This document shows positions 1 to 44,595 of a stretch of 60,274 nucleotides of DNA, one piece after another. Below the pieces are notes generated by a model, which saw nothing but the letters and a program-made list of their open reading frames with translations, did no database searches and was not told the origin of the DNA. The translations under genes and the position numbers were made by a program. The first letter of the stretch is position 1, and every line of letters begins with the position of its first letter. This DNA comes from Eledone cirrhosa (Eukaryota), in contig CAXHJY010001537.1 in the NCBI GenBank assembly GCA_964016885.1, positions 1-60,274 of the forward strand, read 5' to 3'.

Positions 1-4128
<4,128 letters not shown>

Positions 4129-6769: not shown

Positions 6770-6905
<136 letters not shown>

Positions 6906-6945
6906 GATATTAACAAATGGAAACTATATTTATAAAACCATATTT

Positions 6946-7008
6946 ATTTTATTATACATATTTCAAGGACACCACGTTAAATTATGGTGTGCTTTCATCA
7001 GACAAAAT
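6946..7008 (-). ncRNA. Minimal type I hammerhead ribozyme (family A) in short element 6905-7088
   Basis: attttgt-CTGATGA-aagcacacca..tggtgtcctt-GAAA-tatgta-TA-ataaaat; second copy at 17504-17566. Confidence 0.8.
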
Positions 7009-7084
7009 CCAATATAGATCAGTTTTATAAATAAATATTGACATACCATTAAAAAATGCAACCATTACTGTTGGAAGCTCCCGG

Positions 7085-7171
<87 letters not shown>

Positions 7172-7441
7172 TGTTTATATATATCTAGGTGACCGACTAG
7201 ATACCGTCGCCCGAATACAGGCACTTCAGATCGGTTCTAGCTGTTGAAACGGCCGGAGTTCGCTCAGACATGGTAGTCCTGAATTTGTTCATATTAGCCA
7301 CTCTACAACCCCAAGTATCGAGTACTCTGGTGAGTGATGGTCTAACTGTATTTTTTTTACCGCATCCACTCTGCTTACCATAATTGAACTTTGAAAAAAA
7401 TGTATATATATACGTATATATATATATATATATATATATAT

Positions 7442-8038: not shown

Positions 8039-8040
<2 letters not shown>

Positions 8041-8236
8041 CGAAGGAAATGTGGTAAGGAACCAGATGGACCATAACGCATCAAAGTACTCAATACTTAG
8101 GGTAGTAGAGTACTTAGGAACGAGTAGGACCCCGACGGCTGAGCTCAAGCCGTTTCGACGGCTAATTGTGGAGTAATTCTAGTCCAGAATTAGCCGTCGA
8201 AACGGCTTGAGCTCATCCGTCGGGGTCCTACTCGTT

Positions 8237-8240
<4 letters not shown>
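8039..8240. mobile_element. Fold-back element carrying two inverted HHR 3' halves (family B)
   Basis: Arms 8115-8167 / 8188-8240; GAAA-cggc..gccg-TC-ggggt on both strands; same family at 10571-10727 and 36591-36783, with a diverged relative at ~7190-7395. Confidence 0.75.
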
Positions 8241-14696: not shown

Positions 14697-14843
<147 letters not shown>

Positions 14844-14935
14844 GTAATTCCGTCGGAAAGGTCCAGGAAAAAAGAGTGCTCTATGTAGGTTACAGAGCTT
14901 ATTAGTTATGTAATAAACAACATAAGATAATTATT

Positions 14936-14991
14936 TCATTTACCAGTGGTTTCTTGAGAGCAAAGAAATCTGCTTTCAGTCGTCAGAATGA
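14936..14991 (-). ncRNA. Hammerhead ribozyme (family E)
   Basis: Reverse complement of 15076-15131 with few changes. Confidence 0.8.
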
Positions 14992-15075
14992 AAAAATCCT
15001 GGTGTTTTTATTGAATGTGGATGTGTGTGTTTATATATTTATAAATCCACATTCAATAAAAACACCAGGATTTTT

Positions 15076-15131
15076 TCATTCTGACGACTGAAAGCAGATT
15101 TGTTTGCTTTCAAGAAACCACTGGTAAATGA
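15076..15131 (+). ncRNA. Hammerhead ribozyme (family E)
   Basis: tcatt-CTGACGA-ctgaaagcaga tttgt ttgctttcaa-GAAA-ccactgg-TA-aatga. Confidence 0.82.
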
Positions 15132-15254
15132 TATAATTATCTTATGTTGTTTATTACATAACTAATATATATATATATATATATATATATTAGTTATGTA
15201 ACATAAGATAATTATATTAAATGATATAATTATCTTATGTTGTTTATTACATAA

Positions 15255-17306: not shown

Positions 17307-17361
<55 letters not shown>

Positions 17362-17503
17362 GTGTGTGCGCGTAAAAGTTCTTTTAAATTGTTGGGATAC
17401 AACAAGCAAATATTTTTATTACTGATATAAAGCACTCAACAAATATTTGGAGTAAAAATACGATATATTAACAAATGGAAACTATATTTATAAAACCATA
17501 TTT

Positions 17504-17566
17504 ATTTCATTATACATATTTCAAGGACACCAAGTTAAATTATGCTGTGCTTTCATCAGATAAAAT
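17504..17566 (-). ncRNA. Hammerhead ribozyme (family A) in element ~17388-17640
   Basis: attttat-CTGATGA-aagcacagca..tggtgtcctt-GAAA-tatgta-TA-atgaaat. Confidence 0.78.
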
Positions 17567-17640
17567 ATAATATAGATCAGTTTTATAAATAAATATTGAC
17601 ATACGCTTAATGAATGCAACCATTGCTGTTGGAAGCTCCC

Positions 17641-17833
17641 TCATTATCGCTGCCATGTCTTGTGTCTCCAAGAGACCAGTGTCTGTCCTTAGAGCATCAA
17701 CATATGTTAACCTGGGTCTTCCTCTTCCAGTGTGTTGATGCAGGGGCTCCCACAGGAGCACTGGGTGCAGTGTCAACTCTGGATGTCGGTGAACATGTCC
17801 AGCTAACCTCAGTCCCCTCTGGGCTACTCTCGC
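17641..17833 (-). mobile_element. RTE/RTEX-like LINE 3' fragment
   Basis: [34 protein letters not shown]; same family at 58925-59113. Confidence 0.7.
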
Positions 17834-17864
17834 GCATATATATACTGCATATATATATACATGC

Positions 17865-22489: not shown

Positions 22490-23640
22490 TTGTTAGGAAG
22501 ATAGATTTAAGTTTAAAGTAATAAAAATATGTTAAAATTCCGAGCGTGCGCGTTATAAATAATCTGGGGAAGAGTGTGCGATGCATGCATGTGCGTGCGT
22601 GAATGTAAGTGTGTTTAGTGGGATGTATGTGTGTGTGTGCATGAATGAAAGTTTATGTAATGAAAGGCGTGTGCGAATATGTATATAATAAAAAGGGGGA
22701 AATATGTGTGCGATATATATGCGTATATGCCTAGTGAGGACATAGATTTAATTTGAAAGAGAGAATGAAATGGACAACTGGGATGTTGGAACCAAGGCTT
22801 TTAACTTAGCCATTCTGGTGCACTTCTTTCCATTTGATTATTGTTCCTAGGTTTTAATTGCTTGATCAAGGGGGCTTCCTTAATTCTCAGCGTGCCTATA
22901 CTGCGTTCGGTAGTTAAGATTGTGGTGGTAATGCTGTTGTCCCGGGTTCCACATTTGATGATGTGTTTGATAACATGCTCTTTAATACGGAAGTGTAACG
23001 GTCGAATAGTGCTGCCTATGTAGAATAGATTGCATTTATTACATTCTAGCCTGTATACTACGTAGGTACGTAGGCAACAATTAGTGTTGCGGATAGGGCA
23101 ATTGGCTAGGGTGCATCTGTTATCTTCGGTGGGGGGTGTCTTGTGGAGAAGCATCTTCGTAGCGAAAGTCCAGAGTGAGCTAGTATGATATTGAGGCCTG
23201 CTCTACTGATGGCTTTGCGTGGTGGTTTCCACACTTGGGTGTGGGATCTTGAAAATGCAACTGTTGTTTGTGTTGGTCCGGTCTCTGGGTCTGGGGTTTC
23301 ATAGTTCATCGAAGGGTGGAGAAAGAAACTGGGTAACCATTAATCTCAAACACCCTGTGGAATCGTCTGATATGGGTGTCTCTATAAGCATCGTTGCTGC
23401 ATTGGTTGCGTATGAGAGCTATTTCGTTGAAGATGTACCCTCTTTAGAGCTGTTGGGGAGGGCAGATTTGTAATGAACAAACATGTCCCTGCTGGCCGCT
23501 TTGCGGTAGAAATCGGTGTGGATTTCACCGCTATCAGAGATGTTCAATTGTCGGATTTCATCTATCGTCCAATTGAGTATTCTAAACGTTAGTGTTAGGA
23601 AAAGCACAACATCGCACAATGTGAACCACTGTTTTACTGT
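22490..23640 (-). mobile_element. Penelope-like element remnant (RT thumb + GIY-YIG endonuclease)
   Basis: TDFYRKAASRDMFVHYKSALP; CTLANCPI..VVYRLECNKCNLFYIGSTIRPLHFRIKEH. The 3' boundary is approximate. Confidence 0.85.
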
Positions 23641-23644
23641 GCGC

Positions 23645-24990
23645 AGAGAGTTCCGATGACCATATTTTTCTTAATCAGGTGTAATATTCCCTGGTTACGC
23701 GTTCCTTATTACAGATACCATTATAGGATATGTTCTCATCTATCCCCAGGTATCTGTAACAGTCCTCATCAGATATCGGTGAAACAGTTAGGCCATTGAT
23801 GACAATGTTGTAATATTGGGTTGTAGTTTTCCCCGCTTTACAGTCATATATAAACGTTTATCTTGTCCAAACTCCATTCCTATATGCTTTGAGAATGTTG
23901 TAACCAGGTCAAGATTTTTCTTCATCCCATCTATGTTCTTGTGTATAGAGTTTCAGGTCATTCACAAAGAAATTATGGTTTAAATTTGTATATCTGTCCT
24001 CCTGTGAGCCAATGATGTATCCTTCACATTTCTTGAGCAGAAAGGACAAGGAGTTTAATGGCAGGATGAATAACAGCACACAGAGACTGTCTCTTTGAAA
24101 TATACCCCTGTGATATTCTATTTTATAAGTGAAAATAGAGTCCTCCTTCTCTGTCTTTAACTTTAGGATAGTGTCCCAAGAAGAAGACAGCTTCTCTACG
24201 GCTCTGATAATTATGTCTGGGACTTTAGCAAGTCGGAGGGCCTCTATCATCCAAGTGTGTGGAACAGAATAGAAAGCTTTCCTGTAGTCCAGCCAGACTG
24301 TAGCCATATTCCTCCTAAGTTGTCGCATCTCCGACATCGCAGTTTTGTTGATTAGGAGTTGTTGAGCACACTCCAAAAACCCTTTCTTTCCAACTGCGTG
24401 TTCATCTGTGATAATACCATTACTATTGCAATGATCTTGAAGAAATAAGTTCAAGCAAGCTGTCTACATCTTATACATCAGGTTCTGGCTTGCAATGGGT
24501 CGGTAGTTTTTCCAAGTGGGTGTCTTTGTTCAGTATTGTTTGCGCTAATGTCAGCCATTCTGGTATATGTGTATCTCCATTGAGAACTTGTTGGTATATG
24601 TCGATAAGATACATCCGATAGAATATTAGTTTTTTGTACCAGTAGCCGACAATCATGTCTCTTCCTGGTGTTTTCCTATCACAGTCTCAAGGATATCTTC
24701 ATCTATTCGGTATGTTTTTGTTGTAGTGTAGGAGCAATAGTTCTTTGGGATTTCTTTTAGCCGCAACTTGGTTGAAATTCTTCTTTTCACCTCATATTTT
24801 TCTCTAAAAGGAATCTATGTCTTTCTGGGATGTGGCCTCAGTGAACCTTATTTTGCCCTTCATATCTCTATAGACAGATGTTTGGTTTCGTCTGAATCTT
24901 TTATTAAGCACTTTTCTTCGATCTACCTTCTCCTGGTATCGACGTTTCTCGCTGACAACTCTCAATTCTTGTTTGGGGGGTGATCAGCTT
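23645..24990 (-). mobile_element. Decayed R4/Dong-like RT fragment (different subfamily from 1-3918)
   Basis: QQLLINK, VWLDYRKAFYSVPHTW, GIFQRDSL, NHNFFVNDLKLY. Confidence 0.8.
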
Positions 24991-25135: not shown

Positions 25136-25181
<46 letters not shown>

Positions 25182-25183
<2 letters not shown>

Positions 25184-28100
25184 AGAGTTAAACAAGGTTC
25201 AATGAATACATCAAAGAATGAGCTTTACAATAGATTGGAAGCACTCAACAGTTAAAATGTTTTCCAGAGTTATTAATATTAATTCAAAAATATTAACAAA
25301 ATAGATATTCTTGTGATCAAATTATATTTTATTATACATATTTCAGAGGTACTGAGTTAAGTTCAACAGTACGTCCTCATCAGATAAAATAAAATGATAC
25401 ATGACATACCCTGACATGGTAGATGGTTAAGATTCAATCAAGGTGGTGATTAACTTATGACAAACTCAATATTTATACCCTAATATTGAGAACATGAGAT
25501 AACGTAATACAAACAATAGAGATTTTAAGAAATACATGGCATCAATATAACGGTTATAAAACTACTACAGAAAGAGGAAGGAAAAGAAAGCATAGAGGAA
25601 GAAAGTATTTAGTATGTGGCTTGAGAAGACAGATGAAAGATGATTAAAGAGAGAGAGAGACAAAGGGGAGTAATTTATGTTCAAGTTTCTATACACACAG
25701 ATTTCTATAAAATATAGTTGGCGGTTAATTTTCAAAATATTTAATTTATGTTATTTCAGGGTAAAGAATCATGTTTTAGGTTTTAAAAGTTAATAGGTAT
25801 TTTTATTAATATTATAATATAATTATGTTAAATTTCTAAAGTTCAAATTTTATGAAAACAAATTTAAAGGATTTACGAAACATGAGAAAGAAAATATATA
25901 TATATAATGTTTTATATCCCCACGAAGGTAATCTTTACCAAAATTACTTATAATATTGACAACAGTTTCTATAATATAATTTATAAGATAATTATAGTTA
26001 TAATTATTAAAGAATTTATTGTTAAATAGTTTGAGTGCCTTAAGTATCAACCGGCCTTATAATTAAACTTAAAGTAGTCAGAAATTTCAACTATATATAT
26101 GTATTGATCATAAAATACCAAGATTATAGTTTATTATTCATAGTTGAGGTGATACCTTTCAAATATAAATAATATATTATTATATTACAATAATGCAATA
26201 TTGCAATATAGTAAATCATTTCCTGAAGATATTGCTCAAAAATATATATAGTTAAAAATATTGTTAAAGAATTAATGTTTTATATCAATTATTTTCATAT
26301 AGTTGATATATACTATAAAGATATGTCAAAACTATAAGAGTCCTAGTGATAAGGGCTAGATACAAAATAAATATAGAAATAAAAGAAAAGGAATTATTTG
26401 TGAAATTTAAAGATGCCCAAAATTAGAAATAAATGCAATAGGGTTTTAATAAGGAGTAGAAAAGATATCTCTAAAATAGTTTAGCGAATGTGATATAAAG
26501 AAGCGCTGAATATTTGAAAAAGCTGAGGGTAATCTAAATTTAATTAAAATAAAATAAACAAAATAAATTAAATTAAATTATATTATATTATTTTATATTA
26601 TATTAAGTAAATGATTATATAAGTTCGACCTTCCAGGGAATACCAAACACTCATAACAATATAAAGTCATTTGAGTGTCTAAATTATTTATAAATTTAAC
26701 TACGATTATGTTATTCCACTAGATAAAGATATTTGTACAACTATATATATATATAATTATAGGTATTGATGAAACGGTATACATTTAATAAAAAAATAAT
26801 AATTATAATCATTGTTAGTAATGCTATAATTGTAGTTTTACCTCTAGTTCACTGGAGAGATAAACCAATATTTGTCAGCTATTATGGTTTGTTAAATCTA
26901 TACCTAGATATACATTAAAAAAAACAATGCAAATCTAACTTTCCGAGTCCCCAAAACATACTCAAAATGAGTAAAATATATATATATAAAATATGCAAAC
27001 GCATGAATGATACACAGTTCAAATTATAATCAGTAAATTTACAAGTTAAATATCCAAACTATATATCTAAAACAGAGACAGATAAATAAAGATCTGAATC
27101 AAAGTTATAAATATCCAAAAAATCATAGGGTACATCTATCAAGTAAACAAGTTATCAAACAAGTGTCCTTCATTCAAACATTAATTCTATTATAAATGAT
27201 TAGAAGATAAAGCATTATTAAAGTTTTATAAACCGTTATGACTTTTATGTTCAACAGTTGATAATAGACGTCAAAAATCAGGCCTGATTGTTTACTGTTT
27301 TTTCCGGACTTTTTGCGAGGCTTGGAATGTAGACAAAGCTTTATGAAGGCAGTTTGAGAATAATTCACTTTTTTTGGTAATTAAGTTTTCATAATTATTA
27401 ATTATTAATAGGGTTTCCTTTGTAGAGAGGTTGAAGTTAATTGATATTGAAGAGTTGGTATAAATTCCACTATTACAAAGCTTCGTCCAAAAGATCGAGT
27501 ATTTTTAATTTTTGTCTTTTAATGACCATATAAGCTGTGAAAAAGAAGTCGAAGACTTCCTATTAAAATTCGAGAATGAGCATTTGTGATTCGCAAATCT
27601 CGATTTAAATGTCGAAGAAGTTGCTCCTATGTAGTTGTGTGTTGTTATTTGTTTTTACGGTGCAGACAATTATTTTGCAGAGGGCAATCTGGTTTATTTC
27701 TACAATTACATTTTGATTTATTATTATTTATATTATTTATTATTATTTATATTAACACTATTATTAATATCATTATGTTGATTTTGATTTAGAATTATAC
27801 TGTTTATTTTAGCCATGTTTTGGGCCATATTCATAGTTGTAGAATAAGACAGTTTAATTGTGCGTCTATTAAATGTAGAGTGGTATTTATGTTGACTAGG
27901 GAATGAACTATCAAAAGCTTTAAAAAATAGATTAGCTATTGGTGTTCTTACTGCTACAGAAGCAGGGGGGGGGGGGCAAGCCATATAACTGATTTAGTTA
28001 TGGTTCTTTTCCCCAATTTATTCACAGTACAGGTGTTTGAATAATAATTATTAGAATTTATAGAATTTCGTTTATATATGCCATTATTTTTATCAGGATT

Positions 28101-28230
28101 AAAACTCGGATTATTATTGTCTATATATTCTATATTATTTTGATAACCTGCCTTTTTTAACGCATCATTGTAATATCCTGCATTTTCATCAAATATTGAT
28201 TTATTGGCAGATATTCTATTTATGCGTTTT
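25182..28230 (-). mobile_element. 5'-truncated Neptune-type Penelope-like element with long AT-rich 3' region and terminal HHR
   Basis: Minus-strand remnants [61 protein letters not shown] (~27280-28200); HHR at 25326-25390; both ends in (TA)n. Continuity of 25400-27280 with the element is inferred. Confidence 0.78.
25326..25390 (-). ncRNA. Hammerhead ribozyme (family A2) at the PLE 3' end
   Basis: attttat-CTGATGA-ggacgtactg..cagtacctct-GAAA-tatgta-TA-ataaaat. Confidence 0.82.
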
Positions 28231-28242
28231 TGTACGCTATTT

Positions 28243-28309
<67 letters not shown>

Positions 28310-29135: not shown

Positions 29136-29254
29136 GTATATCGTGAAATTGAAAAAATCGATAACGAGGGGTAGCCATCATTTATATATGTGTATATATA
29201 CATAGATGAATGTATATGTATATATATATTTATATATATATATATATATATGTA

Positions 29255-29496
29255 TTAAGTTGTTAAACAATATTCGATGATTATGTCAAAGAATGAGTTT
29301 TACAGTAGATTGGAAGCACTCAACGTAAAAAGGATTTTCAGGAGGAGTTATTAATATTAAAATATAAGTATTAATAAAATACATGTTCTTTCGATCAATT
29401 ACATTTTATTATACATATTTAGGATGTACAACAGTACATACAGAAATATGTATAATAAAATTGATCAAAAGAACATCTATTTTATTAATACTTATA

Positions 29497-29505
<9 letters not shown>
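29255..29505. mobile_element. Fold-back of the family A2 PLE tail, centred on HHR stem II
   Basis: Homologous to 25182-25345; arms ~29354-29420 / 29443-29505, each with (G)AAA-tatgta-TA-ataaaa. Confidence 0.75.
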
Positions 29506-29595
<90 letters not shown>

Positions 29596-29716
29596 AGGTG
29601 AGTTTTATTGTAGTACAATAAAGCAATGCAGATATCGGATAAGAAGCACTCTGCAGTTTGTAGGACTGGAGTATACATAATATATAAGATCAAAAGATGG
29701 TTAAAAGAGTTCCATG

Positions 29717-29787
29717 TATTTTATTATGCGCATTTCAAAAACAAATATCATCATGCAATAACATTTGTGTTTTCATCAGATAAAATA
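29717..29787 (-). ncRNA. Hammerhead ribozyme (family A3)
   Basis: Reverse complement of 29889-29959. Confidence 0.85.
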
Positions 29788-29888
29788 GGAAGACATGATA
29801 TGAAGGTTAAAAAACACTTGTGGATAGTGCAGTTGATTTAAAACTCCACTATCCACAAGTGTGTTTTAACCTTCATATCATGTCTTCC

Positions 29889-29959
29889 TATTTTATCTGA
29901 TGAAAACACAAATGTTATTGCATGATGATATTTGTTTTTGAAATGCGCATAATAAAATA
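29889..29959 (+). ncRNA. Hammerhead ribozyme (family A3)
   Basis: tattttat-CTGATGA-aaacacaaatgttatt..gatatttgttttt-GAAA-tgcgca-TA-ataaaata; 8-bp stem I; palindromic stem III. Confidence 0.85.
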
Positions 29960-30142
29960 CATGGAACTCTTTTAACCATCTTTTGATCTTATATATTATG
30001 TATATATATATATATACACACAGCCATGGCGTGAAAGCGATTTACCAACAATCAGAAGAGTAAGAAAAAACAACAGAAGCTGAGAAAGAAAAGAATGAAA
30101 AACGACACACTAAGGAAGCACACGTGATAGGAGAGAAGTAAC

Positions 30143-35694: not shown

Positions 35695-36125
35695 CTGGCA
35701 AGACTGGAATTGAACCATCAGCACAGTTGAGGTATGTCATACATCAATTTATATATTTTATCTGATGAGGACGTACTGAAAACACACCACAATACCTCCG
35801 AAATATATATAATTGTTTCTACTTTTTGCACAAGGCCAGCAATTATTCCAGTGTATTACTGGTACTTTATTTTATCGACCCTGTAAGGATGAAAGGCAAA
35901 GTTAACCTCGGCGGGATTTGAACTCAGTCCGTAAAGGGACGTAACTGTGCTGCAAAGCATGGCATCCGACCCTCTACCGAAATATATATAATAAAATATA
36001 TTTTGATTACGTTGAATCTCTATATTTATTAATATTAATAACTCCAGAAAATTAACTGTTGAGTGCTTCTAATCTATAAAACTATATTCATTGATTAATC
36101 AATGAACCTTGTTTAACTTTTTGAT
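35695..36125 (+). mobile_element. 3' end of a family A2 PLE with HHR (35755-35811) split by a SINE
   Basis: Homologous to the reverse complement of 25182-25440; attttat-CTGATGA-ggacgtactg..-GAAA-tatata-TA. Confidence 0.78.
35812..35980 (-). mobile_element. tRNA-derived SINE, slightly 5'-truncated, with TSD
   Basis: Flanked by CCGAAATATATATAAT at 35798-35813 and 35977-35992. Confidence 0.88.
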
Positions 36126-36132
36126 ATATATT

Positions 36133-36275: not shown

Positions 36276-36783
<508 letters not shown>

Positions 36784-36895
36784 ATATATATATATACATA
36801 TATACATACTCATACATCATCTTACAGAACTATACATCACCGCCGCATGTACACACTCACACACAAACACTCATCATATCATACATATACGAATG

Positions 36896-39178: not shown

Positions 39179-39610
39179 TGTCCCCCCCCCCCCTTTGCTT
39201 CTGCTGGACATGACCAGAGGGCGTTAGCCTCCCGGTGTTTGCATAGCTACGGCTTCCTAAAACCGTATTTCTTTGGAGATACGAAATATTTATACATTTT
39301 GTATAAAGCTCTGCTTGAAGCGAAATCCTATTTCTTTTATATATATATAAATATAAATTCAGCGAGAATCGCATGTCGGCGGGTATATATATGTATATAT
39401 ATATTTATTTATTTATTTATCCTGGGTTAGATCGGGGGTCACCACAGTAAGTAAGGTACACAATACATTATATAAATATAATAGTATAACCTATATTAAA
39501 TATGTATACTCTGCTTTGTATTGAGTACCTTACAACCTCCACCCATCCCAATCATCACCCCATCCTACCACGAGAAAAGATATAAATACCACCATATTAC
39601 TTGGACAGTC

Positions 39611-40370: not shown

Positions 40371-43300
40371 ACATAGTTAACACCAGAGTTAACACCACAG
40401 TTAACACCACAGTTAAAACCACAGTTAACGCGACAGTTAACACCATAGTTAACACCACAATTAACACCACAGTTAACACCACGTATAACACCACAGTTAA
40501 CACCACAGTTAACACCACAGTTAACACCAGAGTTAACACTACAATTAACACCACAGTTAACACCACAGTTAACATCCCAGGTAACACCACAGTTAACACC
40601 AGAGTTAACACCATAGTTAACACCATAGTTAACACCACAGTTAACATCCCAGTTAACACCACAGTTAACACCACAGTTAACAGCACAGTTAACACCACAG
40701 TTAACACCACAATTAACACGACAGTTAACACCATAGTTAACACCACAGTTAACATCCCAGTTAACACCAGAGTTAACACCACAGTTAACACCACAGTTAA
40801 CACCACAGTTAACACCACAGTTAACACCACAGTTAACATCACAGTTAACACGACCGTTAACACCACAGTTAACACAACAGTTAACACCACAGTTAACACC
40901 ACAGTTAACACCACAGTTAACACCACAGTTAACACCATAGTTAACACCACAGTTAACACCACAGTTAACACCACAGTTAACATCACAGTTATCACCACAG
41001 TTAACACCACAGTTAACACCACAGTTAACACCACAGTTAACACCACAGTTAACACCAGAGTTAACACCACAGTTAACACCACAGTTAACACAACAGTTAA
41101 CACAACAGTTAACACCACAGTTAACACCACAGTTAACACCACAGTTAACACCACAGTTAACACCATAGTTAACACCACAGTTAACACCACAGTTAACACC
41201 ACAGTTAACATCACAGTTAACACCACAGTTAACACCACAGTTAACACCACAGTTAACACCACAGTTAACACCACAGTTAACACCAGAGTTAACACCACAG
41301 TTAACACCACAGTTAACACCACAGTTAACACCACAGTTAACACCACAGTTAACATCACAGTTAACACCACCGTTAAAACCACAGTTAACACAACAGTTAA
41401 CACCACAGTTAACACCACAGTTAACACCATAGTTAACACCACAGTTAACACCACAGTTAACACCACAGTTAACATCACAGTTAACACCACAGTTAACACC
41501 ACAGTTAACACCACAGTTAACACCACAGTTAACACCAGAGTTAACACCACAGTTAACACCACAGTTAACACAACAGTTAACACCACAGTTAACACAACAG
41601 TTAACACAACAGTTAACACAACAGTTAACACCACAGTTAACACCACAGTTAACACCATAGTTAACACCACAGTTAACACCACAGTTAACACCATAGTTTA
41701 CACCACAGTTAACACCATAATTAACACCAGAGTTAACACCACAGTTAACACCACAGTTAACACCACAGTTAACACCACAGTTAACACAACAGTTAACACA
41801 ACAGTTAACACCACAGTTAACACCACAATTAACACCACAGTTAACACCACAGTTAACACCGTAATTAACACCAGAGTTTACACCACAGTTAACCCCATAG
41901 TTAACACCACAGTTAACATCACAGTCAACACCATAGTTAACACCATAGTTAACACCACAGTTAACACCATAGTTAACACCACAGGTAACACCATAGTTAA
42001 CACCATAGTTAACACCATAGTTAACAGCACAGTTAAAACCACAGTTAACACCACAGTTAACACCACAGTTAACACCACAGTTAACACCACAGTTAACACC
42101 ACAGTTAACACCACAGTTAACACCACAGTTAACACCACAGTTAACACCATAGTTAGCACCACAGTTAACACCATAGTTAACACCACAGTTAACACCACAG
42201 TTAACACCACAGTTAACACCATAGTTAACACCATAGTTAAGACCATAGTTAACACCACAGTTAACACCACAGTTAACACCACAGTTAACATCACAGGTAA
42301 CACCACAGTTAACACCACAGTTAACACCACAGTTAACATCACAGTTAACACCACAGTTAACACCATAGTTAACACGACAGTTAACACCATAGTTAACACC
42401 ATAGTTAACACCACAGTTAACAGCACAGTTAAAACCACAGTTAACACCATAGTTAACACCACAGTTAACGCCATAGTTAACACCACAGTTAACACCACAG
42501 TTAACACCACAGTTAACACCGCAGTTAACAGCACAGTTAACACCACAGTTAACACCACAGTTAACACCACAGTTAACACAACAGTTAACACCACAGTTAA
42601 CACCACAGTTAACACCACAGTTAACAGCACAGTAAACACCACAGTAAACACCACAGTTAACACCATAGTTTATATCACAGTTAACATCACAGTTAACACC
42701 ACAGTTAACACCATAGTTAACACCACAGTTAACACCACAGTTAACACCACAGTTAACACCACAGTTAACACCACAGTTAACACCACAGTTAACACCACAG
42801 TTAACACCAGAGTTAACACCACAGTTAACACCACAGTTAACACCACAGTTAACACAACAGTTAACACACAGTTAACATCCCAGTTAACACCACAGTTAAC
42901 ACCGCAGTTAACACAACAGTTAACATCACAGTTAACACCACAGTTAACACAACAGTTAACACACAGTTAACATCCCAGTTAACACCACAGTTAACACCGC
43001 AGTTAACACCGCAGTTAACACCACAGTTAACACCACAGTTAACACCACAGTTAACACCACAGTTAACATCACAGTTAACACCACAGTTAACACCACAGTT
43101 AACACAACAGTTAACACAACAGTTAACACACAGTTAACATCCCAGTTAACACCACAGTTAACACCACAGTTAACACCACAGTTAACACCACAGTTAACAC
43201 CACAGTTAACACCACAGTTAACACCACAGTTAACACCATAGTTAACACCACAGTTAACACCACAGTTAACACCACAGTTAACAGCACAGTTAACACCACA

Positions 43301-44297
43301 GTTAACACCACAGTTAACACCACAGTTAACACCATAGTTTATATCACAGTTAACATCACAGTTAACACCACAGTTAACACCATAGTTAACACCACAGTTA
43401 ACACCACAGTTAACACCACAGTTAACACCACAGTTAACACCATAGTTAATACACAGTTAACATCACAGTTAACACCACAGTTAACATCACATGTAACACC
43501 ACAGTTAACACCACAGTTAACACCACAGTTAACACCACAGTTAACACAACAGTTAACACCATAGTTAACACCACAGTTAACACCACAGTTAACACCACAG
43601 TTAACATCACAGTTCACACCACAGTTAACACCATAGTTAACACCATAGTTAACACCACAGTTAGCACCATAGTTAACACTACAGTTAACACCATAGTTAA
43701 CACCATAGTTAACACTACAGTTAACACCATAGTTAACACTACAGTTAACACCATAGTTAACACCACAGATAACACCACAGTTAACACAACATATAACACC
43801 ACAGTTAACACCACAGTTAACACCACAGTTAACACCACAGTTAACATCCCAGTTAACACCACAGTTAACAATGCAGTTAACACCACAGTTAACACCACAG
43901 TTAACACCACAGTTAACACCACAATTAACACCACAGTTAACACCAGAGTTAACACCATAGTTAACACCATAGTTAACACCACAGTTAACACCACAGTTAA
44001 CACCACAGTTAACATCACATATAACACCACAGTTAACACCACAGTTAACACCATAGTTAACACCACAGTTAACACCACAGTTAACACCACAGTTAACATC
44101 ACATATAACACCACAGTTAACACCACAGTTAACACCACAGTTAACACCACAGTTAACACCAGAGTTAACACCAGAGTTAACACCACAGTCAACACCACAG
44201 TTAACACCAAAGTTATCACCAGAGTTAACACCAGATTTAACACCACAGTTAACACCACAGTTAACACCAAAGTTAACATCACGGTTAACATCACAGT
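40371..44297. repeat. 12-bp tandem satellite (CACCACAGTTAA)n, ~325 units
   Basis: Direct reading; most units contain the palindrome GTTAAC. Confidence 0.97.
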
Positions 44298-44595
44298 TCC
44301 ACAGACCCTTAAGACAGCATGTCAATTAATTGTTTTGTGATAACAATAGACGAAGTGAGTGAGTACAGGAGACGGAACACCCCGTAATAAAATGACGGGG
44401 ATGACATTTATGTAAAGTCAATAGGTTAAGTTATTATGAATAGCAGTGAGGGTAAATATAATAACCAAAATATAAAACAAAACTGAGGAATCAGTACTGA
44501 AGATGAACTTCTCCTTGAAGATAAGGATAAACCAGAAACAGTAGCAGCATTAGTAGTAGCATAATGGTCACCAAAGATTCGTGCCATAATAGACA

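What the first reader, a model, noticed from the sequence alone, without database searches (positions are those of the whole stretch)
25182..28230. Candidate autonomous partner: Neptune-type PLE ending in the family A hammerhead
Seen: GIY-YIG/Cys-rich ORF remnants are followed by ~1.9 kb of AT-rich sequence, an HHR, and a ~140-nt tail containing TTGAGTGCTT. The same tail/HHR appears without ORF at 29255, 35695 and, diverged, at 17388/6905 and 29600. All intact copies share stem I atttt(a/g)t/at(a/g)aaat but have different stem II sequences. Inference: family A mini-elements are 3' ends or derivatives of this PLE lineage, whose GIY-YIG nuclease would be the (TA)n-targeting enzyme.
Basis: partly seen in the sequence, partly recalled or inferred. 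Interest (0 to 1): 0.7.

Follow-up and report, generated by a model that had tools for sequence, protein, structure and literature searches.

The report
Dead Hydra-clade retroelement with end-marking hairpin
This is a broken, front-truncated copy of a known kind of jumping gene (Hydra clade of Penelope-like elements, not Neptune) whose short tail-end copies share a small, apparently undescribed RNA hairpin that likely tells the element's enzyme where to start copying.

Summary
The anatomy is real. On the minus strand, between two (TA)n runs, lie RT-thumb/linker/GIY-YIG remnants (28241-27295), 1.9 kb of non-coding AT-rich DNA, a type I hammerhead (25391-25325) and a tail. The clade call is wrong: the CxCX5C linker, the missing CxxC inside GIY-YIG and the C-terminal CxH define the Hydra clade (Craig 2021), already reported to insert into (TA)n. 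This copy is not autonomous: no RT core, three frame breaks, one stop. Sequencing contigs cover all 30 bins with variant copies, the 3' 300 nt 36-91 times deeper, but no single record spans the element. The ORF-to-hammerhead gap (about 1,950 nt) exceeds that of all 48 relatives measured (median 140). Copies at 29254 and 35700 are true relatives; 17388/6905 and 29600 share only structural motifs. Copies end within -1 to +3 nt of a hairpin base in 10 of 14 informative comparisons, which would explain the PLE optional tail.

The parts
28246..28307 (.). (TA)n run at the 5'-truncation point (target microsatellite)
27975..28241 (-). End of RT thumb and linker up to the IW-x-x-PP motif; RT core absent (homology to the full-length relative P0168 starts at residue 432 of 723)
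27736..27969 (-). Post-thumb domain, shifted frame after a G11 run
27663..27713 (-). CxCX5C linker motif diagnostic of the Hydra clade, in a further frame
27295..27654 (-). GIY-YIG endonuclease remnant: YIG, R, H, E, CxH kept; GIY half deleted; one stop; CxxC and catalytic N mutated in this copy but present in other copies
25460..27292 (-). Long AT-rich non-coding spacer, likely the 3' UTR of this family; multi-copy in sequencing contigs
25325..25391 (-). Type I hammerhead: 8-bp AU stem I, core at 25383, stem II of 3 bp + C.Y mismatch + 6 bp, self-complementary stem III, predicted cleavage after 25333
25240..25270 (-).
25182..25280 (-). Optional 3' tail, starting just upstream of the hairpin; tail-less copies end near 25280-25287
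   Evidence: (tables 2, 6, 7)
25140..25181 (.). (TA)n run at the 3' end
29254..29502 (-). Same-family 3' end, fold-back within stem II, hammerhead core lost, decayed hairpin at 29308-29356
35696..36126 (+). Same-family mini copy, split at stem III by a 163-bp SINE-like insertion (35814-35976, 16-bp duplication); hairpin at 36041
17358..17650 (-). Mini copy of a second subfamily, with hammerhead (17559) and hairpin (17453)
6904..7085 (-). Tail-less copy of the second subfamily, ending just upstream of where the hairpin lies in 17358-17650
29593..30004 (.). Head-to-head pair of a third subfamily: tailed arm with hairpin (29672, minus) and tail-less arm (plus) ending at the hairpin base

Best explanation
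The 3-kb insert is a 5'-truncated, mutated copy of a Hydra-clade Penelope-like element sitting in a (TA)n microsatellite, with a likely 1.9-kb 3' UTR, and its short relatives are 3'-end copies whose ends are likely set by a conserved RNA hairpin that would position the reverse transcriptase. Shown: clade motifs, decay, hammerhead fold, hairpin with compensatory changes, and copy ends at hairpin bases. Inferred: an intact family member supplied RT-EN protein; the protein nicks (TA)n DNA, binds a hairpin and starts copying the RNA just 5' of it, possibly helped by UA-rich RNA pairing with the nicked target; two hairpins give two start sites, hence copies with and without the tail; starts in the upstream terminal repeat, or early fall-off and fold-back, give the far more numerous mini copies.
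For: Clade: CxCX5C and CxH present, no CxxC before YIG, as defined in PMC8557442 section 11; window pieces score 92, 50 and 33 bits on a Hydra-type HMM and about 0 on an HMM of CxxC-type PLEs, while the neighbouring PLE scores 127 on the latter and 9 on the former; tree separates the groups at 100/100 with the query among the Hydra-type rows; hit P0144 is near-identical by eye to Penelope-1_NV in the paper's Fig. S7. Linkage: 30 of 30 bins covered in 4 of 4 runs; a 488-nt diverged contig crosses the ORF end into the spacer. Hairpin: 15 of 33 distinct tails against 0.105 in 200 shuffles and 0 of 165 ORF windows; 46 of 51 3' arms have the 5' arm (background 259 of 691), inner pairs 116 of 138 against a shuffled mean of 79, maximum 95; 28 of 33 model hits in 54 loci not used to build the model are on the element strand. 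Ends: 10 of 14 informative same-family comparisons end -1 to +3 nt from a hairpin base, 3 of them at the second hairpin. Two internal RT start sites bounding the tail, in a stem-loop, were shown for a Poseidon PLE (PMC11167929).
Against: No record spans the element; coverage is thin at 25523, 26396-26426 (one contig per run in X1-X3) and 26529-26614 (repeat-masked), and depth is 5-10 times lower at 26108-26617, so part of the spacer may be an insertion in some copies. The three whole-genome-like runs are one sample, and summed contig depth is not a copy number. 4 of 14 end comparisons stop 11-36 nt from a hairpin. 18 of 33 tails fail the strict descriptor (several end at (TA)n before the hairpin position, several have weak inner stems). 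The second hairpin of this family is not in the window. The Hydra-type HMM was built from hits of the query itself. No intact ORF of this family was found. No biochemical test.
Confidence: 0.7

Rival explanations
1. The 3-kb unit is a composite: a Hydra ORF fragment, one or more unrelated AT-rich repeats and a mini-element inserted next to one another at (TA)n runs, so the long UTR is not part of the element.
For: Short (TA)n runs at 25894, 26742 and 26976; uneven depth and thin points; relatives have a median gap of 140 nt, maximum 1110, in 48 loci.
Against: All bins are multi-copy at the same order of depth as the ORF; contigs cross the ORF-spacer boundary; 113 of 234 raw reads at 25461 span the mini-body boundary; the listed joints that skip large internal parts of the spacer have only 21-23 letters on one side and fall on TA runs (24 joints were not shown). 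All parts read in the same orientation.
Confidence: 0.2
2. The hairpin motif works as DNA (promoter or nuclease recognition site in the terminal repeat), or is only a protein-binding site, and copy ends fall beside it because TA-rich DNA there is cut or recombined.
For: The 3' arm is nearly palindromic: 100 sense and 94 antisense matches in the loci. TATA/ATAT precedes 27 of 52 hairpins against 5 of 62 background 12-mers, which could be old target remnants. PMC11167929 reports that the Drosophila Penelope tail was needed for EN recognition.
Against: Inner stems covary and include G-U pairs on the element strand; the 2-nt bulge is one-sided and starts with T in 46 of 46.
Confidence: 0.25
3. The element is Neptune-type.
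For: C-terminal GIY-YIG, a Cys-rich linker and microsatellite targeting are shared with Neptune.
Against: No CX2-5CxxC linker, no CxxC inside GIY-YIG in the copy or in 0 of 71 homologs long enough to test; about 0 bits on the CxxC-type HMM; Neptune rows of Fig. S7 do not resemble it by eye.
Confidence: 0.02
4. The mini copies are a self-propagating non-autonomous family (SINE- or retrozyme-like) amplified from mini masters rather than by-products of full-length elements.
For: Depth falls 29-fold between adjacent 100-nt bins at about 25495 and is then flat; 17358 and 6904 share the same 5' start of homology; non-autonomous PLE derivatives are reported.
Against: Depth falls in steps (35,733 at 25445; 13,402 at 25461), with many fold-back joints, as expected of truncation products; copies here are single or inverted, not head-to-tail arrays.
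Confidence: 0.35

Closest known systems
Hydra clade of Penelope-like elements (Craig et al. 2021, PMC8557442), incl. Hydra-1_Obim
   Same: C-terminal GIY-YIG without CCHH, CxCX5C linker, CxxC/CxH motifs, type I hammerhead near the 3' end, insertion into (TA)n.
   Different: ORF-to-hammerhead gap about 1.9 kb, against listed family lengths of 1,080-3,045 bp in all; hammerhead sequence differs from Hydra-1_Obim; the bulged hairpin is not mentioned in the main text (0 hits for hairpin or stem-loop).
Poseidon_Ac (PAc) in vitro system (Frangieh et al. 2024, PMC11167929)
   Same: Optional tail bounded by two 3' ends that lie downstream of the hammerhead, at a stem-loop; AT-rich target.
   Different: Different clade; there both starts lie in one AC-rich stem-loop region inside the ORF start and the tail is 30-40 bp; here two separate conserved hairpins about 57-83 nt apart each sit just 3' of an end. 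Not tested biochemically here.
Minimal/dimeric PLE hammerheads (Cervera and De la Pena 2014, PMC4209133) and non-LTR retrozymes (bioRxiv 10.64898/2026.07.22.740005)
   Same: Type I hammerhead with palindromic helix III; many solo or opposite-strand copies from truncated PLEs; ORF-less derivatives.
   Different: Copies here are monomers or inverted pairs, not tandem arrays, so they do not meet the retrozyme definition.
Neptune/Nematis PLEs
   Same: C-terminal GIY-YIG, Cys linker, hammerhead.
   Different: They have CX2-5CxxC and CCHH; this element has neither. The neighbouring PLE at 22804-23670 is of the CxxC type.

Membership tests
Hydra clade PLE | C-terminal GIY-YIG after the RT | tested here: met
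   Order thumb, linker, EN
Hydra clade PLE | CxCX5C linker motif | tested here: met
   27710-27684
Hydra clade PLE | CCHH (CxxC between GIY and YIG) absent | tested here: met
   No CxxC before YIG in the copy, although a short deletion lies here; 0 of 71 homologs have it
Hydra clade PLE | CxxC and CxH flanking the conserved E and N | tested here: met
   CxH in the copy; both CxxC cysteines and the N in other copies of the family
Hydra clade PLE | RWK and DKT motifs in the N-terminal RT | tested here: inconclusive
   Region absent from this copy; present in relative P0168
Hydra clade PLE | Canonical hammerhead near the 3' end; (TA)n target | tested here: met
Hydra clade PLE | Generally short (<3 kb) | tested here: not met
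   The truncated copy is already 3.06 kb; a full-length member would be about 4.3 kb (inferred). A described tendency, not a diagnostic motif
Hydra clade PLE | RT-core phylogeny | not testable with these tools
   No RT core in the copy; EN-only tree places it with Hydra-type rows
Neptune PLE | CX2-5CxxC linker | tested here: not met
Neptune PLE | CCHH Zn finger with CxxC inside GIY-YIG | tested here: not met
Autonomous element | Intact RT-EN ORF and upstream terminal repeat | tested here: not met
   5'-truncated, three frame breaks, one stop, GIY half deleted
Non-LTR retrozyme | Tandem units each with a type I hammerhead | tested here: not met
   Copies single or head-to-head; definition
Type I hammerhead ribozyme | Self-cleavage | not testable with these tools
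   Core and stems present; activity not measured

The most novel reading that the evidence does not exclude
Hydra-clade PLEs carry a clade-wide pair of bulged RNA hairpins that act as a ruler for their telomerase-related RT: each hairpin fixes a cDNA start just 5' of itself, next to UA-rich RNA that pairs with the nicked (TA)n target. This one signal would explain the optional tail, the (TA)n bias and the flood of mini-elements, much as a template boundary element does in telomerase RNA.
Probability: 0.4. Interest if true: 0.75.

Novelty: new variant of a known kind. Interest (0 to 1): 0.52.

Why it matters
The element itself is ordinary debris of a described clade. The hairpin matters more: how PLE reverse transcriptases pick internal start sites and produce the optional tail is open, and only one clade has been assayed. 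A 25-30 nt structure with compensatory changes, sitting at copy ends in distant Hydra families, gives a precise target for mutagenesis and a marker for annotating ORF-less Hydra derivatives that Rfam misses.

Tried and rejected
No whole genome is held, so copies could not be aligned directly. Rfam found no hammerhead or hairpin family among the listed hits in the window (150 of 206 shown), in the element or in six loci. Pfam does not name the element's pieces, and gives only a sub-threshold GIY-YIG hit for 1 of 7 homologs. Word-based protein searches with the EN piece and the thumb piece found nothing (weak evidence). A 23-nt family pattern had 0 matches in metagenome and viral contigs. No RNA holder listed. 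Earlier-finding look-ups by place and sequence were empty. The internal-repeat self-comparison of the element was cut off after the self-hit and says nothing. The Atlas search on P0168 gave only unnamed clusters. Pair counts on alignment A3 are biased because rows were chosen by the descriptor; one search is the unbiased test. In one search, 19 comparisons did not end at a contig end; 5 were dropped as uninformative or confounded: four where the test copy was longer than the reference and one where the alignment ran on through (TA)n. Stem I sharing was rejected as proof of lineage because L041/L045 have the same stem.

Full report
Setting. The window is animal DNA rich in microsatellites and decayed retroelements. 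I take it to be a cephalopod from the look of its SINE; that label is recalled and comes from no call. No whole genome is held.

Observation. On the minus strand, bounded by (TA)n at 28246 and 25181, three-frame translation shows an RT-thumb remnant from 28241, a frame change at the G run near 27970, a second near 27720-27735, a CxCX5C motif at 27710, a third break near 27660, and an endonuclease piece 27654-27295 with one stop. Then come 1.79 kb at 23% GC with no open frame over 68 codons, a type I hammerhead with its core at 25383 and a 150-nt end. A hammerhead descriptor gives 10 hits in the window against 1 in 30 shuffled windows. Their stem III is self-complementary, as in the dimer-type hammerheads of PLEs (PMC4209133, first quarter of the text read). 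The copy at 29254 has lost its core in a fold-back, and the copy at 35700 is split by a 163-bp insertion with a 16-bp duplication.

Clade. Craig et al. (PMC8557442; abstract, sections 3, 6, 11, 12, 15, term search, and supplement parts 1, 2, 52, 53, 58, 59 of 59 read) define the Hydra clade by a CxCX5C linker, no CCHH, CxxC and CxH near the C terminus, a hammerhead and (TA)n insertion. The element has these. The EN piece finds 2,004 representatives at E up to 0.001; of the best 150, 141 have CxLC and 139 CxH, and 0 of the 71 long enough have CxxC before YIG. A full-length cluster member, P0168, has RWK and DKT. As a control I used the other PLE in the window (22804-23670), which has CxxC inside a Pfam GIY-YIG match, and its 8 homologs. 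The element's pieces score 92, 33 and 50 bits on an HMM of 8 Hydra-type proteins and about 0 on the control HMM; the neighbour scores 9 and 127. An EN tree of 30 rows splits the groups at 100/100, with the query among the Hydra-type rows. The Hydra-type set came from the query's own hits, so the anchor is the by-eye match of these proteins to the paper's Fig. S7. No row in my tree is a named Neptune. It is not Hydra-1_Obim, whose hammerhead differs.

Not autonomous. Homology to P0168 begins at residue 432 of 723, so the RT core is missing. Differences seen in essentially all other copies restore the stop, both CxxC cysteines and the catalytic Asn at codon level, and loose ends at 27664 in 5 and 7 contigs encode the missing L-V-Y half of GIY. 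The family was therefore once functional; this copy decayed after insertion. No intact member was found.

Is the 1.9 kb part of the element? Three contig sets from one sample and one RAD-seq run were laid on 25190-28235 at 80% likeness. All 30 bins are covered in all 4 runs, mostly by pieces under 99% alike. In X1 the median of the 27 body bins is 4,832 and the three 3' bins are 175,000-441,000, with a 29-fold step near 25495. A 488-nt diverged contig crosses from the ORF into the spacer, and 113 of 234 raw reads at 25461 carry a shared one-base difference across the mini-body boundary. Against this, no record spans the element, coverage is thin at three places, and 26108-26617 is 5-10 times shallower. 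I put colinearity at about 0.75. In 79 Hydra-type loci with an EN end (of 80 fetched), 48 have a hammerhead downstream, at a median of 140 nt and at most 1,110; 31 have none detected, mostly because the contig ends. The window's gap is about 1,950 nt.

Which minis belong? Outside the structural motifs, 29254 and 35700 match the element's end (p 0.002-0.008), while 17358 and 29593 do not clearly (p 0.048-0.63; short AT-rich segments, low power). They do share an A-U closing pair in the hairpin described below, seen in 0 of 46 metagenome examples, which suggests related subfamilies of one local lineage rather than derivatives of this family.

The hairpin. TTGAGTGCTT is the 3' arm of a hairpin: RCTC, a 3-5 bp stem, a loop, a 2-nt bulge, GAGY, then RCT. 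A strict descriptor finds it in 15 of 33 distinct post-hammerhead tails, against a mean of 0.105 in 200 shuffles and 0 of 165 ORF windows; 17 tails under 110 nt were left out. Starting only from the 3' arm, 46 of 51 have the 5' arm, the bulge starts with T in 46 of 46, and 116 of 138 inner positions pair, against 79 on average and 95 at most in 2,000 shuffles (relatedness among loci is not corrected). A covariance model gives 33 hits in 54 loci not used to build it, 28 on the element strand. By eye it is also in Hydra-2_Amil and Hydra-2_Ajap of the paper's File S7. Nineteen hammerheads are followed by two hairpins about 57-83 nt apart, 12 of them upstream of the ORF. When same-family copies are compared, the shorter one ends -1 to +3 nt from a hairpin base in 10 of 14 informative cases, three at the second hairpin; the other four end 11-36 nt away and involve more diverged references. 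The window shows the same by eye: 6904 against 17358, 29897 against 29779, 15081 against 14986, and reads of this family end near 25284-25287, just upstream of the hairpin at 25270. TATA or ATAT lies in the 12 nt before 27 of 52 hairpins against 5 of 62 background 12-mers.

Mechanism. For a Poseidon PLE, RT starts at two internal sites in a stem-loop downstream of the hammerhead, and the tail is the sequence between them (PMC11167929, parts 1-2 of 4 read). I infer that Hydra RT-EN nicks (TA)n, binds one of two hairpins and copies from just 5' of it. Starts in the upstream terminal repeat, or early fall-off with fold-back, would give the abundant minis. The rival is that the motif acts as DNA: its 3' arm is nearly palindromic. 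G-U pairs and the one-sided bulge favour RNA. None of this was assayed.

Novelty. The clade, its (TA)n bias, solo and inverted hammerhead copies and non-autonomous PLE derivatives are published (bioRxiv 10.64898/2026.07.22.740005, part 1 of 5 and a term search read). I found no description of this hairpin in seven library searches, in term searches of two papers or in Rfam. PMC13282606 (passages only) has no hit for hammerhead or Hydra. The library lacks most subscription papers, and I did not see Repbase entries or the PAc supplementary figures, which may show a related structure. Verdict: a new variant of a known kind; the element is ordinary, the long UTR is unusual, and the end-marking hairpin is the testable part.

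Noticed in passing
window 22804-23670 (-): A second, separate PLE fragment (RT thumb plus GIY-YIG with internal CxxC, Nematis/Neptune-like type), 1.5 kb from the finding; used as a control.
   Followed up: partly
window 127-3774 (+) and 23909-24983 (-): Frameshifted non-LTR elements with RT (and an RLE-like C terminus in the first), resembling R4/Dong by recall.
   Followed up: no
window 14843-15160: Head-to-head pair of another hammerhead family: one arm has the hairpin in its G-C form plus tail, the other ends 1 nt before it at (TA)n.
   Followed up: yes
window 8040-8240, 36592-36790, 7185-7400: A further family with the same hairpin and a long stem III hammerhead remnant; 8040-8240 and 36592-36790 fold back near stem II, like the 29254 copy, which suggests stem II is a snap-back site.
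   Followed up: partly
window 17650-17835 (-): A LINE-like RT C-terminal fragment is joined directly to the 5' end of the 17358 mini copy between two (TA)n runs; possibly a template-switch chimera.
   Followed up: no
window 10158 (+), 38762 (-), 14384 (+), 59393 (-), 58623 (+), 58356 (-), 46954 (+), 46063 (-): Several more repeated hammerhead-like cores from other families; some pass the descriptor, some were seen only by eye.
   Followed up: no
window 39500-39536 (+): An extra hairpin-model hit (E 0.007) not tied to a hammerhead that I examined.
   Followed up: no
window 40375-44298: 3.9-kb array of a 12-bp unit, 327 copies, 91% matches.
   Followed up: no
L021:3139-4400: A Hydra-type locus with a 1,110-nt ORF-to-hammerhead gap and two hairpins; the only other long-UTR case among 48.
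   Followed up: partly
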